Assembly: GCA_046704725.1 (NCBI GenBank)
Contig: JBJKRI010000005.1
Span: forward strand, 1 to 64,000
DNA from: Candidatus Woesearchaeota archaeon
Lineage (GTDB): Archaea; Nanobdellota; Nanobdellia; Woesearchaeales; SKIA01
Length of the DNA: 64,000 nt
Direction of reading: 5' to 3'
Part shown: positions 43,141 to 45,978 of the stretch, in pieces
Numbering within the stretch: position 1 is the stretch's first letter
Layout: each line of letters begins with the position of its first letter
The notes under the pieces: generated by a model
What the model was told of the DNA's origin: nothing
Seen by the model: only the letters and a program-made list of their open reading frames with translations
Databases searched by the model: none
Program-made: the position numbers and the translations under genes

Positions 43141-43690
43141 GGGGCAGGTCGAGAGCCTGGGGACGATTTTCTGGGGGGCGCTCCTGCTCATCATCTGCCT
43201 GCTGTTCAGCATACTCTTCTGGGTGGTGAACGGGCATCTGCACGACGCGGCCTTCACCAAGGACCAGCGCGTGGACTGGGAGGCGGGATACCTCACGAGC
43301 AGCCTCGCGCGTTCTCTAGTGACTGTGGACGGCAAGACGGAGAGCTTCGCCACATACCTCGACACGCACCAGGGAACGCTGGACCAGAACCTCGTGCAAT
43401 CGCATCTGGACGCCTTCCGGGCATCCGTGCACATCCCTGAGAGGAAGGTGCTCCTCTTCGTGTCGGTCAAGAAGACCTACATCTCCTCCGTGGACGAAGG
43501 TTTCGACTCGTCGACAGAGAGCATCATCGCGTCGCTTGGGACCACGCAAGGAGAGAACACCCTCGCAGCGAACATGTACAACACCCCTGCGCAGTACGGC
43601 GACCTGTCCTTCGTGGAGCTGCCCGGAGGGATGGGGATCGGCGCGATAACCTCAGGCACGGACAAGCCAGTCACCGGAGGGCCCGCATGA
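43130..43690 (+). CDS. Class III signal peptide (pilin-like) protein
   Basis: MRRKG|QVESLGTIFWGALLLIICLLFSILFWVV; GGAGGTG RBS. Confidence 0.85.
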   Translation: MRRKGQVESLGTIFWGALLLIICLLFSILFWVVNGHLHDAAFTKDQRVDWEAGYLTSSLARSLVTVDGKTESFATYLDTHQGTLDQNLVQSHLDAFRASVHIPERKVLLFVSVKKTYISSVDEGFDSSTESIIASLGTTQGENTLAANMYNTPAQYGDLSFVELPGGMGIGAITSGTDKPVTGGPA

Positions 43691-45978
43691 GACGCGGACA
43701 GATCTCCTATTTCCCCGTCGTCCTGACGATCGGCGTGACGATCATCTTCGCGCTCGTCCTGGGGCGCTTGCTCGTGGCGGGGCAATTCGACGGCCACCCC
43801 CCAGCCATCGGCGAGAAGCAGGAAGCGGTGCTGCGCGCCTATAGTCGAGCGGATGATATCCGGTTGTACGCTCAGCAGGCCGCGCGGGAGGCCGTGGCTG
43901 AGGCGGAGAAGAGCGGTGACTTCGCAACGCCCATCGCCCAGCGGGCGGCGACGCGTTTCACCGCCCTCATGCGGCAATATCCGTTCGCGAGCATCACTCA
44001 GATGTTCAACGCCAAGCAGGAAGGCGACAGGATCGTCTTCACCTCCGACCAGGATTTGTCAGTTCCCGTCGGCACCGCAGGTGCGGCGACCACCTCTGCG
44101 CCGTCCGGTGCGGGCGTCCTCACGGTCTGGCCGACCGACCATCACGTCATCACGAGCCTTTTCGGCTGGCGCAAGGCGCCGCAGGGAGGGAGCACGTACC
44201 ACCCGGCAATCGACATCCGCGGAGCGGTGGGAGACCCGGTGTACGCCGTGGCCGATGGGACGGCCATCGCAGAGAAGGCGAAGCACCTGCTCCAGCTCAC
44301 CTTGCCCGACGGCTGGACGTGCTGGTACCTCCACATCGACCCGACGGCGAACGGACCTGTCACCGCGGGGGAGAAGGTCGCGACCGTCGGGAACATCCCC
44401 GGCGTGGAGCACCACGTGGACCTGCGCTGCTTCAACGACGCCCTGCTCGGCCCCACACTCGCTGAGAATCTCTGGCCGAAAGACTACGTGAAGGACGGAG
44501 CTGCGACCGGCGACCTGCAATACGCCATCATCTACGACAAGCACGCCTTCGTGGACCCGTACTGCCTGTTTACGCCAGCGCTCCAGCAAGAGGCACTGCA
44601 GAGCGACCTGAAGGACCCGACGCTCGTGGCCGATACGACCGGCTTCACCAAACGGCCGGGCGGGGATGTCGCGACCAAGCTGCAGGACACCTGTCAAGCG
44701 TACGCGGCGCAGCACCTGCTGGCCGCCGCGCAGACGACGAGCGCTTCGACGTCGAGCCCTCCCGTGTCGAACACCGTGCTGCAGAAGACGCTCTCCAACC
44801 TCAAAGACCAACAGGAGCAGGGAAAGAGTCTGTACCAGTGGGTGCAGGATACCGCGAAGAGCGCAGGGGTCGACCCGAACCTTGTCATCGCGGTCATCGC
44901 GCAAGAGAGCCAGGGGGTGATCGACGCGCAAAGTAGGACCGGCGTGCAAGGAGTCATGCAGGTCACCTGTACCACCTTCCAGGACACGTTGCACGTATCG
45001 ACCTGCGACAAGCGCGCCGATCCCGTGCTCAGCATACAGGCGGGGACGTACTATCTCGCGGGCCTGTGGAAGAAGTACGACGGCTACACGCAGCAAGCGG
45101 CATTCACGGCCGCGAACTACAACGGCGGCGGGATGGTGCTGGTCGCCGTCAAGCGCGCAGGAAGCGACCCGTCCTATGACGCCGCGATGGCGCGGTTCAC
45201 CCCGCAGCTCCTCAGCGCAGCCCCCGGATACGCCGGCTGGACCCCGCAGCAGCTCGCCGCGAAAGTGAAGGAGACGACGGACTACGGGAGAAAGGTGTCC
45301 GGGTACTACGGCATGCTCGGCGGAGCGGTGGCTCCCGGCGGAACGAGCCGCACCGATATCGGGACGTACACCTTCGCGCTCATGGTGAGCGCCCCGATTG
45401 ACAAGAGCTACACCGACGTGCTCGACCTGCGAAGCACGCTCTCGAGCTGCGGGACCACCGGTTGCGTGACCCAAGCGTTGCAGCGCAGCGGCGCGACAGC
45501 GTGCTCCGACTACGCGTCAGAACTGCAACGCACCATCACCGAATGTCAGCAGGACCAGGACCAGCACGTCTGTGGCTGCCCGATACCCCTGCCGCCGCTG
45601 GGCGTCGACGCGAAAGTCACACCCGAATCGATACTCATCGGAAAGACCACGACGCCAGTGCAATGGATCGTGCCGCCGGGGGACGCCGTCATCCACGTGA
45701 CCTTCTCCTTGCCGGATACAAACGACCCGCTGCACCCGATCACAGGGGACACGCTCACGCTCTCGGGAACGACGGTCAGGCTCACGGACAGCGCAAACAC
45801 CATCCTGGGCGGCGCTTCCGGGACGCTCGGCACACAGGGCATTATCTACGCGACGAGGCAGCCCGACGGACAGACGCTGCGACTGACGAACACGACGGTC
45901 GGAGCGTGCTTCGCCGGCTATGCGAAAGCCTATTGCCTGGACGGTACGCGCTTCTGGGTGACACAGCAGGTGCCGTGA
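43687..45978 (+). CDS. Pilin-like protein fused to M23 peptidase and SLT lytic transglycosylase domains
   Basis: MRRG|QISYFPVVLTIGVTIIFALVL. M23: WPT..HVITSLFGWR, YHPAIDI, GDPVYAVADG, YLHI, VTAGEKVATVGN, HHVDL. SLT: GVDPNLVIAVIAQES, SRTGVQGVMQV, IQAGTYYL, AANYNGG, ETTDY..KV. Confidence 0.88.
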   Translation: MRRGQISYFPVVLTIGVTIIFALVLGRLLVAGQFDGHPPAIGEKQEAVLRAYSRADDIRLYAQQAAREAVAEAEKSGDFATPIAQRAATRFTALMRQYPFASITQMFNAKQEGDRIVFTSDQDLSVPVGTAGAATTSAPSGAGVLTVWPTDHHVITSLFGWRKAPQGGSTYHPAIDIRGAVGDPVYAVADGTAIAEKAKHLLQLTLPDGWTCWYLHIDPTANGPVTAGEKVATVGNIPGVEHHVDLRCFNDALLGPTLAENLWPKDYVKDGAATGDLQYAIIYDKHAFVDPYCLFTPALQQEALQSDLKDPTLVADTTGFTKRPGGDVATKLQDTCQAYAAQHLLAAAQTTSASTSSPPVSNTVLQKTLSNLKDQQEQGKSLYQWVQDTAKSAGVDPNLVIAVIAQESQGVIDAQSRTGVQGVMQVTCTTFQDTLHVSTCDKRADPVLSIQAGTYYLAGLWKKYDGYTQQAAFTAANYNGGGMVLVAVKRAGSDPSYDAAMARFTPQLLSAAPGYAGWTPQQLAAKVKETTDYGRKVSGYYGMLGGAVAPGGTSRTDIGTYTFALMVSAPIDKSYTDVLDLRSTLSSCGTTGCVTQALQRSGATACSDYASELQRTITECQQDQDQHVCGCPIPLPPLGVDAKVTPESILIGKTTTPVQWIVPPGDAVIHVTFSLPDTNDPLHPITGDTLTLSGTTVRLTDSANTILGGASGTLGTQGIIYATRQPDGQTLRLTNTTVGACFAGYAKAYCLDGTRFWVTQQVP

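What the first reader, a model, noticed from the sequence alone, without database searches (positions are those of the whole stretch)
43687..45978. Prepilin - M23 endopeptidase - lytic transglycosylase triple fusion
Seen: a class III signal, then M23 motifs (ITSLFGWR, HPAID near 44200, YLH, HHVD) and SLT motifs (AQES catalytic Glu near 44900, GVMQV, NYNGG, ETTDY). Established: M23 enzymes cut peptide cross-links and SLTs cut the glycan strand, so together they attack both dimensions of the sacculus; methanogen pseudomurein is lysozyme-resistant. The second M23 zinc motif reads H-V-D rather than the canonical H-x-H, so the metal site may be altered or the domain may only bind. Inference: a pilus-tip wall-drilling subunit.
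Basis: partly seen in the sequence, partly recalled or inferred. Interest (0 to 1): 0.9.

Follow-up and report, generated by a model that had tools for sequence, protein, structure and literature searches.

The report
Two-headed bacterial-wall cutter of a Woesearchaeon
A tiny DPANN (Woesearchaeota-type) archaeon, which shows no sign of a bacterial-type wall of its own, encodes a surface enzyme with two domains that cut bacterial cell wall, as the last gene of a conserved row of pilin-like genes, so it most likely serves to breach bacterial neighbours.

Summary
ORF 43687..45978 (+, 763 aa) has a class-III-like N-terminus (MRRG|Q plus 27 hydrophobic residues), a Peptidase_M23 domain and an SLT lytic-transglycosylase domain (Pfam, Foldseek). 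The M23 metal motif reads H-V-D, not H-x-H.

New context:
- The genome is a 1.18-Mb Woesearchaeota-type DPANN archaeon. It is not a methanogen.
- H-x-D is conserved in all 19 closest homologues, so it is a subfamily trait, not decay.
- The first ~130 residues form a module found in 254 of 301 sampled genomes of the order. It is fused to swappable wall-hydrolase cassettes: M23, SLT, GH108, 3D, NlpC/P60, glucosaminidase, VgrG3-like.
- The gene is usually the last of a co-directional array of small proteins with class-III-like N-termini, and lies directly upstream of an RPA gene.

Best reading: a surface-exposed, two-headed murein hydrolase acting on bacterial walls, produced together with a pilin-like apparatus. 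"Pilus tip" remains unproven: no pilin profile or fold match, and no assembly ATPase in the locus.

Wall hydrolases in Woesearchaeota and Nanoarchaeia are already published, so this is a new variant of a known kind. The order-wide locus architecture was not found in the papers I searched.

The parts
43687..45978 (+). Whole gene: class-III-like N-terminus, N-module, M23, SLT and a C-terminal Cys-rich module (763 aa; stop TGA at 45976-45978)
43687..43698 (+). MRRG: basic residues followed by Gly; the predicted prepilin-peptidase site lies after G4
   Evidence: Sequence. [KRQ][AG] in this position in 23 of 23 homologues with a complete N-terminus and 15 of 17 in A5, the other two having S or C. 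Cleavage itself is inferred.
43699..43779 (+). Hydrophobic helix (residues 5-31), either a membrane anchor or a filament-core helix
   Evidence: Model helix 8-31; sequence
43804..44076 (+). Conserved N-module: IGEKQ motif, two helices and a small sheet (residues ~40-130)
   Evidence: G42 invariant and Q45 nearly invariant. The profile is found in 254 of 301 genomes of the order. No PDB fold match.
44113..44436 (+). Peptidase_M23 (LytM-type) domain, residues ~143-250
44200..44214 (+). H172-P-A-I-D176, the first metal-binding motif (HxxxD)
44332..44334 (+). H216 of Y-L-H, an invariant catalytic-site His
44413..44421 (+). H243-V-D245: H-x-D in place of the canonical H-x-H
44824..45321 (+). SLT (GH23-type) lytic transglycosylase domain, residues ~380-545
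44905..44907 (+). E407 of Q-E-S, the predicted catalytic Glu
   Evidence: Aligned to the QES of LtgA-type structures; invariant in A2
45352..45975 (+). C-terminal Cys-rich helical plus beta-rich module of unknown function
   Evidence: Conserved Cys at 620, 629, 631 and 741. A profile of residues 556-640 hits the upstream ORFs in 6 RPA-sampled loci. No Atlas hit.
41851..41858 (+). TTTAAATA, a TATA-box-like element 22-29 nt upstream of the ATG at 41880; the likely operon promoter
   Evidence: sequence only; function inferred
41880..42701 (+). Operon gene 1 (273 aa), N-terminus MRRG|EVSWL plus a hydrophobic stretch
42688..43140 (+). Operon gene 2 (150 aa), N-terminal hydrophobic helix; conserved next to the hydrolase in same-genus genomes
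43130..43690 (+). Operon gene 3 (186 aa), N-terminus MRRKG|QVESLG plus a hydrophobic stretch; its stop overlaps the hydrolase start
34636..41842 (+). Upstream array of about 14 genes. Most have class-III-like N-termini. It includes four tandem 72-92-aa Cys-rich genes at 40130-41141.
   Evidence: collinear with arrays in other genomes
46031..47086 (+). RPA-like single-stranded-DNA-binding protein gene with its own TATA-like TTTATA. It is a conserved downstream neighbour, not part of the operon.

Best explanation
The gene encodes an exported, surface-exposed, two-headed murein hydrolase of a Woesearchaeota-type DPANN archaeon.

Proposed path:
- The short basic N-terminus and the hydrophobic helix take the protein into the membrane. 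Inferred: it is then cut after G4 by the genome's single A24 prepilin peptidase. The helix keeps it either in the membrane or in the core of a filament built from the pilin-like proteins encoded just upstream.
- Outside the cell, the M23 domain cuts peptide cross-links. It has an H/D/D metal site instead of H/D/H. The SLT domain cuts the MurNAc-GlcNAc bond.
- Together they open a hole in peptidoglycan.

The archaeon shows no sign of a murein wall of its own. The substrate is therefore the wall of bacteria it touches, whether as host, prey or food.

Shown here: the domains, the motifs, their conservation, the operon and array context, the order-wide family and its swapping of catalytic cassettes. 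Inferred: cleavage of the signal, the location, activity of both heads, and the bacterial target.
For: Domains and catalytic residues:
- Pfam, NCBIfam, PDB sequence matches and fold matches.
- D176, H216 and H243 are invariant and H172 nearly invariant in 25 homologues. D245 is present in 19 of 19 close homologues.
- E407-S408, the G-x-M-Q block and Y478-N479-x-G481 are invariant in the three closest.

Export:
- [KRQ][AG] directly before the hydrophobic stretch in 23 of 23 and 15 of 17.
- The genome has one Peptidase_A24 hit.

No own murein:
- No PBP transpeptidase hit.
- One Mur_ligase_M hit, a family that also rings in the two archaeal controls.
- No McrA. The genome is 99.7% complete.

Selection for wall cutting as such:
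- In the two same-genus genomes the orthologous gene, in the same operon and with the same RPA neighbour, carries M23+GH108+PG_binding_3 instead of M23+SLT.
- Of 10 N-module proteins from other families, 9 have a wall-hydrolase Pfam domain, one of them below the cut-off.
- Of 20 more, 6 have M23 and 5 have SLT, without overlap. One each has VgrG3-like_C, NlpC/P60 and glucosaminidase.

Core status: the N-module is found in 254 of 301 genomes of the order, or 247 of 294 without seven unpublished genomes.

Co-production with pilin-like proteins: overlapping start and stop codons and a single TATA-like element upstream. Arrays are present in 6 of 7 distant loci.

Literature:
- Murein-type transglycosylases in Woesearchaeota and Pacearchaeota, proposed to act on bacterial walls (PMC8204110 and PMC9723730, passages read).
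- Archaeal M23 hydrolases that kill bacteria, and M23 in four Nanoarchaeia genomes (PMC12352652, passages read).
Against: - M23 scores only 2 bits above Pfam's cut-off. Its third metal ligand is Asp, which I found in no paper, so activity of this head is unproven.
- No pilin profile hits the protein or 10 array proteins. The N-module has no PDB fold match.
- There is no ATPase or platform gene in the window.
- No recognisable pathway for using anhydro-muropeptides: no AnmK hit.
- One of 7 distant loci has the hydrolase without the array (L035).
- 6 to 9 of the 20 further N-module proteins have no recognised wall-hydrolase domain.
- No bacterial partner is known.
- There are no expression data.
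Confidence: 0.6

Rival explanations
1. The protein is a true modular type IV pilin. After cleavage its N-terminal helix enters the filament core, and the bulky M23-SLT part sits at the pilus tip, where it drills the wall of a bacterium the pilus touches.
For: - Class-III-like N-terminus conserved across the family.
- A24 peptidase and five T2SSE ATPase hits elsewhere in the genome.
- The gene ends a conserved array of small proteins with the same N-terminal pattern. The array includes tandem 72-92-aa genes whose N-termini are very similar between families, as for major pilins.
- A 763-aa subunit could not sit within a filament shaft (inference).
Against: - No pilin-family profile match.
- In the N-module model the transmembrane helix is followed by a low-confidence break and a two-helix bundle, not one long pilin helix on a sheet. 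It has no PDB match at E<=0.001.
- No ATPase or platform gene in the locus, nor any seen among the ORFs listed for the two extended loci, where ORFs were listed but not profile-scanned.
- From recall: archaeal class III signals also occur on non-filament surface proteins, such as the Sulfolobus sugar-binding proteins.
Confidence: 0.2
2. It is a freely secreted antibacterial weapon, bacteriocin-like, as Woldo of Halogranum is. The N-terminus serves only as an export signal, and the neighbouring genes are unrelated to it.
For: Archaeal M23 hydrolases are secreted and kill bacteria (PMC12352652, passages). Cassette swapping and patchy catalytic types resemble arms-race evolution.
Against: - The hydrophobic stretch is 27 residues long and is not followed by a signal-peptidase-I-type site (sequence; this judgement is mine).
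- The gene is near-universal and mostly single-copy in the order, not patchy.
- Its start overlaps the upstream gene's stop, and its position after the array is conserved.
Confidence: 0.1
3. Only the SLT head is catalytic. The M23 domain, lacking the canonical H-x-H, is a binding or regulatory LytM-type domain, as in EnvC, NlpD or DipM.
For: H-x-D replaces H-x-H. The Pfam score is marginal. One of the closest solved sequence and fold matches is the DipM LytM domain, entitled a coordinator of autolysins.
Against: - From recall: degenerate LytM factors lose several metal ligands. Here H172, D176, H216 and H243 are kept.
- The replacing residue is always Asp, a competent zinc ligand, in 19 of 19 close homologues. 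It also occurs in 8 further M23 domains outside the close family.
Confidence: 0.2
4. It is a housekeeping enzyme acting on the archaeon's own envelope, or a leftover lysis or tail-lysin module of an integrated virus.
For: M23-plus-transglycosylase or M23-plus-lysozyme combinations are typical of phage tail lysins and tape-measure proteins. Upstream lie giant proteins, one with a weak tailspike-type Peptidase_G2 hit.
Against: - No PBP hit, and one Mur-ligase-type hit only.
- Composition matches the genome: 0.63-0.65 in the locus against 0.60-0.62 per contig.
- The locus is collinear and sits at the same place, upstream of RPA, in 25 of 29 loci from many families. That indicates vertical inheritance, not a mobile element.
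Confidence: 0.05

Closest known systems
Murein-type lytic transglycosylase proteins of Woesearchaeota and Pacearchaeota (Castelle et al. 2021, PMC8204110; Vigneron et al. 2022, PMC9723730; passages read)
   Same: Same lineage and the same SLT/GH23 domain. Those papers also propose that the enzyme binds or degrades bacterial walls of hosts or prey.
   Different: The passages I read describe large proteins (up to 3000 aa) with the transglycosylase domain. They do not mention an M23 head, a class-III-like N-terminal module, cassette swapping, the pilin-like array or the RPA neighbour. Their supplements could not be seen.
Woldo and Danwoldo of Halogranum salarium, and the survey of archaeal peptidoglycan hydrolases (PMC12352652; passages read)
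   Same: An archaeal M23 hydrolase directed at bacteria, with a modular build and domain shuffling. The survey notes M23 homologues in four Nanoarchaeia genomes.
   Different: Woldo is M23 plus two PG_binding_1 domains with a Tat signal, and is released into the supernatant. The protein here has two catalytic heads, an H-x-D site, a class-III-like anchor and a pilin-like operon. Only 32% of the surveyed hydrolases had a recognised Sec or Tat signal.
Phage virion-associated wall hydrolases: tail lysins and tape-measure proteins with M23 plus transglycosylase or lysozyme; phi29 gp13 is recalled, not tested here
   Same: Two heads, glycan-cutting and M23 peptide-cutting, on one protein carried by a penetration device. 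Foldseek finds tail lysins, tape-measure proteins and a 'lysozyme/metalloendopeptidase'; the best hit covers 464 columns.
   Different: Those are parts of virions without an N-terminal membrane helix. This one is a chromosomal, vertically inherited archaeal gene.
Modular or minor type IV pilins carrying a functional module (e.g. Streptococcus sanguinis PilB/PilC, CofB/TcpB; recalled)
   Same: A prepilin-type N-terminus followed by a large functional module; encoded with other pilin genes; expected at the filament tip or surface.
   Different: No pilin fold or profile match here. No known modular pilin that I recall carries wall hydrolases. Processing and assembly are untested.
Canonical M23/LytM metallopeptidases (LytM, lysostaphin, ShyA, StM23)
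   Same: Same fold. HxxxD and the Y-x-H histidine are present.
   Different: The third metal ligand is Asp (H-x-D) rather than His (H-x-H). It is conserved in this archaeal subfamily, and H-x-D occurs in 27 of 71 aligned M23 domains among the query's best 150 relatives.

Membership tests
Peptidase family M23 (Pfam PF01551, LytM-type) | Profile match above the curated cut-off | tested here: met
   30.9 bits against a cut-off of 28.7; 34.4 bits in the genome search. Marginal but consistent. 23 of 25 homologues also match.
Peptidase family M23 (Pfam PF01551, LytM-type) | M23 fold | tested here: met
   Foldseek probability 1.00 to 6muk, 3slu, 7qrl, 9gy1, 6ue4 and 2gu1
Peptidase family M23 (Pfam PF01551, LytM-type) | HxxxD metal motif and the mid-domain catalytic His | tested here: met
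   H172-PAI-D176 and H216. D176 and H216 are invariant and H172 nearly so. Aligned to the H-x-x-I-D and Y-G-H of StM23.
Peptidase family M23 (Pfam PF01551, LytM-type) | HxH motif, whose second His is the third zinc ligand (role recalled from LytM) | tested here: not met
   Reads H243-V-D245. H-x-D in 19 of 19 close homologues; H-x-H in the six more distant ~1000-aa homologues. I therefore file it as a variant M23 domain, not a canonical one.
Peptidase family M23 (Pfam PF01551, LytM-type) | Zinc-dependent endopeptidase activity on peptidoglycan | not testable with these tools
   Model coordinates are not readable here, and no biochemistry is possible.
SLT / GH23 family-1 lytic transglycosylase (Pfam PF01464) | Profile match above the cut-off, and the fold | tested here: met
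   63.8 bits against 21.3. Foldseek hits to MltE, Slt, LtgA, MltC and MltF.
SLT / GH23 family-1 lytic transglycosylase (Pfam PF01464) | Catalytic Glu in an E-S motif, plus the G-L-M-Q-type and A-Y-N-x-G-type motifs (motif names recalled) | tested here: met
   E407-S408 aligned with the QES of 5mpq. GVMQV aligns with GLMQV and NYNGG with GYNAG. Invariant in the three closest homologues.
SLT / GH23 family-1 lytic transglycosylase (Pfam PF01464) | Formation of 1,6-anhydro-MurNAc products | not testable with these tools
   Needs muropeptide LC-MS.
Archaeal type IV pilin / class III signal peptide protein | Short basic N-terminus ending in G/A, directly followed by ~20 hydrophobic residues | tested here: met
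   MRRG|QISYFPVVLTIGVTIIFALVLG. 23 of 23 and 15 of 17 relatives keep [KRQ][AG].
Archaeal type IV pilin / class III signal peptide protein | A class III signal peptidase (A24) in the genome | tested here: met
   One hit, 57.5 bits, at C7:28264-28614
Archaeal type IV pilin / class III signal peptide protein | Match to a pilin or archaellin N-terminal profile | tested here: not met
   None in Pfam or NCBIfam for this protein, nor for 10 array proteins at E<=1 (best is a flagellin model at E 0.082).
Archaeal type IV pilin / class III signal peptide protein | Pilin fold of the globular part | tested here: inconclusive
   N-module model pLDDT 73.3. No PDB match at E<=0.001.
Archaeal type IV pilin / class III signal peptide protein | Encoded with an assembly ATPase and platform protein | tested here: not met
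   Five T2SSE hits in the genome, none in the window.
Archaeal type IV pilin / class III signal peptide protein | Cleavage by the peptidase and incorporation into a filament | not testable with these tools
   Needs N-terminal mass spectrometry and imaging.
Order-wide 'N-module wall hydrolase' family (defined here) | N-module (basic-[AG], helix, IGxKQ, helices); a C-terminal Cys-rich module; position directly upstream of RPA | tested here: met
   It is the query of profile A5, which is found in 254 of 301 genomes. The C-module profile hits 6 RPA-sampled upstream ORFs. RPA lies directly downstream here and in 25 of 29 other loci.

The most novel reading that the evidence does not exclude
The whole ~20-kb conserved locus may encode an undescribed filament or tether with which Woesearchaeales attach to bacteria and open their wall. 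The locus comprises giant surface proteins, about 14 pilin-like proteins including tandem small Cys-rich 'major pilin' candidates, and a terminal hydrolase whose catalytic cassettes are swapped between lineages. On this reading it is an archaeal counterpart of a phage tail tip or a predatory type IV pilus. Its near-universal presence would mean that this large DPANN order lives on bacteria rather than on archaea.
Probability: 0.2. Interest if true: 0.85.

Novelty: new variant of a known kind. Interest (0 to 1): 0.55.

Why it matters
Most DPANN archaea are uncultured, and who their hosts are is an open question. For Woesearchaeota both methanogens and bacteria have been proposed.

A single-copy, near-universal, vertically inherited gene whose only constant theme is cutting bacterial peptidoglycan, produced together with a pilin-like apparatus, points to bacteria as partners. 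It also gives concrete handles for testing this:
- an enzyme to assay on sacculi of candidate hosts;
- a cassette type to correlate with the wall chemotype of co-occurring bacteria;
- an epitope to localise by cryo-ET or immunogold labelling.

A class-III-like N-terminus might account for some archaeal wall hydrolases that lack a recognised Sec or Tat signal; 32% had one in PMC12352652. I did not test this.

The conserved H-x-D site is a natural experiment on M23 metal coordination.

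Tried and rejected
- The search for related loci with the 25-row alignment gave an error: no stretch conserved enough. With the 3-row alignment, 47 pattern matches were found but none was a relative. I then used the genome search instead.
- ESM Atlas: no usable hit for residues 552-763. For residues 1-135 it returned only unnamed small archaeal clusters, which is a lead and no more.
- Complex prediction of the N-module (A5) with operon gene 3 (A4): no verdict, score 0.14 against a mark of 0.32. 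This is no evidence either way.
- The look-up of sequencing runs: no run was listed and no RNA holder was listed. Read laying was therefore not used, and there are no expression data.
- Rfam on the window: no family at gathering score.
- My first regex for the N-module missed 7 of 20 loci. I replaced it with an HMM search.
- The RPA-sampled test is a lower bound. Only 3 kb upstream was held, so most N-modules lay outside the loci, and 5 loci had about 1.1 kb or less of upstream sequence. Of the 30 loci, 7 had an M23 or SLT hit with my own profiles and 4 more had only an N- or C-module hit. Of the 10 no-hit upstream ORFs sent to Pfam, 4 had wall hydrolases, 2 had GDSL hydrolases, 1 had only a weak Flagellin_D3 hit and 3 had nothing. 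Five further no-hit loci had their upstream ORF listed but were not sent to Pfam: L070, L088 and L093 have short ORFs, and L096 and L098 are the two Altiarchaeota records. L091 had no qualifying ORF.
- Considered and rejected: a methanogen or pseudomurein context; a compositional island; a wrong start codon.
- Literature searches that found nothing on the specific points: Woesearchaeota + pilin + transglycosylase, 0 papers; M23 + HxH + HxD, 0 papers. DPANN + pilin + peptidoglycan hydrolase gave 4 papers, all on CPR bacteria judging by title and abstract start. Woesearchaeales + peptidoglycan gave 9 papers, listing only, none on this locus by title. PMC13705601 on archaeal type-4 filaments has 0 occurrences of 'peptidoglycan', 'hydrolase' or 'M23'. 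Supplements of all papers were closed, and Module 98 of PMC8204110 may list some of these families.

Full report
**1. The object.**
Window 43687..45978 (+) is one open frame of 763 aa. Its ATG overlaps the stop of the preceding gene (43130..43690). Its N-terminus aligns residue for residue with homologues, so the start is right.
- Pfam gives SLT at 63.8 bits (residues 387-483) and Peptidase_M23 at 30.9 bits (residues 171-237; cut-off 28.7).
- NCBIfam gives only partial, below-cut-off matches to MltF, Slt, EmtA and MltC, and to peptidoglycan hydrolase and ActS models.
- PDB sequence matches are LtgA/Slt-type transglycosylases, T7 gp16, MltF and the StM23 peptidase.
- An AlphaFold2 model built on 25 homologues has mean pLDDT 81.6. 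It shows a transmembrane helix, a small helical/beta N-domain, a beta-rich M23 domain, a helical SLT domain and a C-terminal helical plus beta-rich part.
- Foldseek matches MltE, Slt, LtgA, MltC and MltF, and the M23 structures 6muk, 3slu, DipM, StM23, ShyA and Csd, at probability 1.00.

**2. The organism.**
The window is the first 64 kb of contig C5 of a 1.18-Mb genome in 8 contigs, 99.7% complete. G+C is about 0.61 on every contig. The locus is not a compositional outlier.
- The gene after the hydrolase is an archaeal RPA-type single-stranded-DNA-binding protein.
- Relatives of that RPA in named public records are mostly Candidatus Woesearchaeota, Nanoarchaeota or Nanoarchaeia MAGs, the best at 58% identity.
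- One relative of the hydrolase is named a Woesearchaeota DD-metalloendopeptidase family protein by NCBI.
- There is no McrA hit and no PBP transpeptidase hit.
- There is one Mur_ligase_M hit, a family that also rings in Methanocaldococcus and Haloferax controls.

The methanogen/pseudomurein frame of the finding therefore does not apply. Nothing suggests that the cell has murein of its own.

**3. The M23 site.**
In the 25-sequence family alignment G160, R162, D176, H216 and H243 are invariant and H172 is nearly so.
- The canonical P-H-L-H-F/L-E stretch of M23 reads P-H-L-D-L-R-C in the close family, and H-H-V-D-L-R-C here.
- The six more distant ~1000-aa homologues keep H-x-H.
- I aligned all M23 domains among the 150 best representatives with a profile built from this family. 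Of the 71 with a residue there, 27 have H-x-D and 44 have H-x-H. The 27 comprise the 19 closest homologues and 8 others.
- From recall of LytM, the second His of H-x-H is the third zinc ligand. It is replaced here by Asp, which can also bind zinc.
- Conservation of the other four positions, and of the Asp itself, argues for a working H/D/D site rather than a dead domain. This is inference, because the model's coordinates could not be inspected.
- No paper in the library holds M23, HxH and HxD together.

**4. The SLT site.**
E407-S408 aligns with the Q-E-S of the LtgA-type structures. G-V-M-Q-V aligns with G-L-M-Q-V, and N-Y-N-G-G with G-Y-N-A-G. These residues are invariant in the three closest homologues.

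**5. The N-terminus.**
- MRRG is followed by 27 mostly hydrophobic residues.
- In the family, a basic or Gln residue followed by Ala or Gly stands directly before the hydrophobic stretch in 23 of 23 sequences with a complete N-terminus.
- The same holds in 15 of 17 N-modules from other families; the other two have Ser or Cys.
- The genome has one Peptidase_A24 hit and five T2SSE-type ATPase hits, none in the window.
- A crude scan of the genome for this N-terminal pattern gives 87 ORFs, including archaellin-like and classical pilin-like ones and also ordinary Sec-type signals. Thirteen of the 87 lie between 26045 and 43687 of the window.
- The pattern therefore fits a class III signal, but by itself it does not prove one.

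**6. The operon and the array.**
- Genes 41880..42701, 42688..43140, 43130..43690 and 43687..45978 overlap at their ends.
- A TTTAAATA element lies 22-29 nt before 41880. RPA has its own TTTATA element.
- Upstream, from 34636, there are about 14 further + strand genes, most with the same N-terminal pattern.
- Among them are four tandem 72-92-aa Cys-rich genes. Three begin [basic][AG]-Q-G/N-[IL]-S-[LV]; the fourth (40923) lacks the basic-[AG] start.
- Further upstream are proteins of 1009 and 1583 aa with Ig-like, fn3 and DUF7107 hits.
- None of the array proteins matches a pilin profile.

**7. The family.**
A full scan of 1.84 billion representatives found 14 proteins at E<=1e-30.
- The two closest, at 39% and 37% identity, share the whole M23+SLT build.
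- The next ones share the N-module and M23 but carry GH108, often with PG_binding_3, instead of SLT.
- That includes the orthologues in the two same-genus genomes. They sit in the same operon, after homologues of genes 2 and 3 and before RPA.
- The glycan-cutting head was therefore exchanged within one locus.

**8. The N-module is order-wide.**
Matches limited to positions 1-75 up to 1-130 of the family profile appeared in many genomes.
- I fetched 14 such places, of which one (L034) gave no usable ORF. Their proteins (553-1355 aa) share the pattern: basic-[AG], helix, [IV]G-x-x-Q, helices, and often a C-G-x-Y...C-Y-P loop.
- I sent 10 of those 13 proteins to Pfam. Nine have a wall-hydrolase domain: M23 in three (one below the cut-off), SLT in two, 3D in two, NlpC/P60 plus glucosaminidase in one, and glucosaminidase in one. 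One has none.
- A profile of the N-module alone finds 254 of 301 genomes of the order (190 of 223 high-quality genomes; 191 of 217 genera), mostly as one copy. Seven of these genomes are flagged unpublished, and all seven match; without them the count is 247 of 294.
- In 20 further loci from other families, M23 occurs in 6 and SLT in 5, without overlap. VgrG3-like_C, NlpC/P60 and glucosaminidase occur in one each. So 11 to 14 of the 20 have a recognised wall hydrolase.
- None of these 30 has both M23 and SLT. Among loci sampled through RPA, three do: L076, L077 and L090.

**9. Synteny.**
- RPA follows directly on the same strand in both same-genus loci, in 6 of 7 distant loci and in 17 of 20 further loci. 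That is 25 of 29.
- In 6 of the 7 distant loci the hydrolase ends a co-directional run of 10-15 genes with N-terminal hydrophobic helices, most beginning M-x-K-K-[GA]. The order and sizes of these genes mirror the window's, including two or three tandem ~85-aa Cys-rich genes. In the seventh locus (L035) the hydrolase stands without the array.
- Two extended loci continue upstream into proteins of 984-4205 aa, as the window does.
- Sampling the other way, from 30 RPA loci holding at most 3 kb upstream, 7 upstream same-strand ORFs hit my M23 or SLT profiles and 4 more hit only the N- or C-module profile.
- Ten of the loci without such a hit were sent to Pfam. They gave NlpC/P60+Muramidase, SLT, NlpC/P60, VanY, two GDSL hydrolases, one weak Flagellin_D3 hit and three with nothing. 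Five further no-hit loci, whose upstream ORFs are listed (three short ORFs and the two Altiarchaeota records), were not sent.
- This is a lower bound, because most N-termini lay outside the fetched stretch.

**10. What it most likely does.**
The constant parts of the family are the N-module, a C-terminal Cys-rich module and the place in the locus. The variable part is whichever enzyme cuts peptidoglycan. That pattern fits a fixed delivery or anchoring scaffold carrying exchangeable wall-cutting heads, as in phage tail lysins, which are also the best viral fold matches.

Since the cell shows no murein synthesis, the target should be bacterial walls. This agrees with earlier proposals for Woesearchaeal transglycosylases (PMC8204110 and PMC9723730, passages read) and with the demonstration that archaeal M23 hydrolases kill bacteria (PMC12352652, passages read).

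Whether the enzyme sits in the membrane, on a filament or at its tip is open:
- The N-module model (pLDDT 73.3) has no PDB match.
- A complex prediction gave no verdict.
- No sequencing run was listed.

**11. Novelty.**
Known already:
- wall hydrolases in Woesearchaeota and Nanoarchaeia;
- M23 plus transglycosylase combinations in phages;
- automatic annotation of relatives as M23 proteins.

Not found in the papers I searched (supplements closed):
- the class-III-like N-module shared by these hydrolases;
- the fixed locus after a pilin-like array and before RPA;
- the cassette swapping;
- the near-universal presence in the order;
- the conserved H-x-D M23 subfamily.

I rate the finding itself a new variant of a known kind, of moderate interest. 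The locus-level reading is the part worth following.

Noticed in passing
window 40130-41141 (+): Four tandem small genes (92, 85, 80 and 72 aa) with overlapping ends and Cys-rich C-termini. The N-termini of three ([basic][AG]-Q-G/N-[IL]-S-[LV] plus a hydrophobic stretch) closely resemble those of ~85-aa tandem genes in other families of the order. They are candidate major subunits of a filament, but no pilin profile matches them.
   Followed up: partly
window 21294-22259 (+): ORF with an Amidase_3 (N-acetylmuramoyl-L-alanine amidase) match, 42.6 bits in hmmscan. It is the only Amidase_3 place in the genome and a third kind of wall hydrolase on the same contig.
   Followed up: partly
window 644-1831 (+): A second SLT-domain ORF (395 aa; 22 bits in the genome search) with internal hydrophobic segments and a Q-E-S-G-G motif. 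It lacks the N-module.
   Followed up: no
G000 C5:260507-260686 (outside the window): A second M23 match (53 bits) with the canonical H-L-H-F motif in a short open frame of about 90 aa. It may be a small stand-alone M23 protein or a fragment.
   Followed up: no
window 16594-20247, 27160-30189 and 29847-34598 (+): Giant proteins upstream of the array. They give weak hits to the Peptidase_G2 intramolecular-chaperone cleavage domain (tailspike-type), fn3, Ig-like domains and a Cys-rich DUF7107/Dickkopf-like domain. Equivalent giant genes (984-4205 aa) precede the array in two other genomes (L042, L043).
   Followed up: partly
window against L009, L010, L012 and L013: The window's genome has about 61% G+C. 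The homologous loci of the two 'same genus' genomes have 40-45%, and the hydrolase orthologues are only 21-23% identical to the window's. That is a very large divergence for one genus label.
   Followed up: no
window 41851-41875 and about 37960-37985: Nearly the same promoter-like string (TTTAAATACGC-A/C-TTTCGGGAG) stands before 41880 and before the 37986 frame. This suggests a repeated promoter within the array.
   Followed up: no
L081 and L094 (named Nanoarchaeota records): In two loci the large ORF directly upstream of RPA carries a GDSL/SGNH hydrolase domain instead of a classical wall hydrolase. From recall, peptidoglycan O-acetyl esterases are of this type, so it may be a further cassette.
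   Followed up: no
window 48098-48943 (+): A SpoIIM-family membrane protein (44.7 bits) in an archaeal genome, two genes beyond RPA.
   Followed up: no
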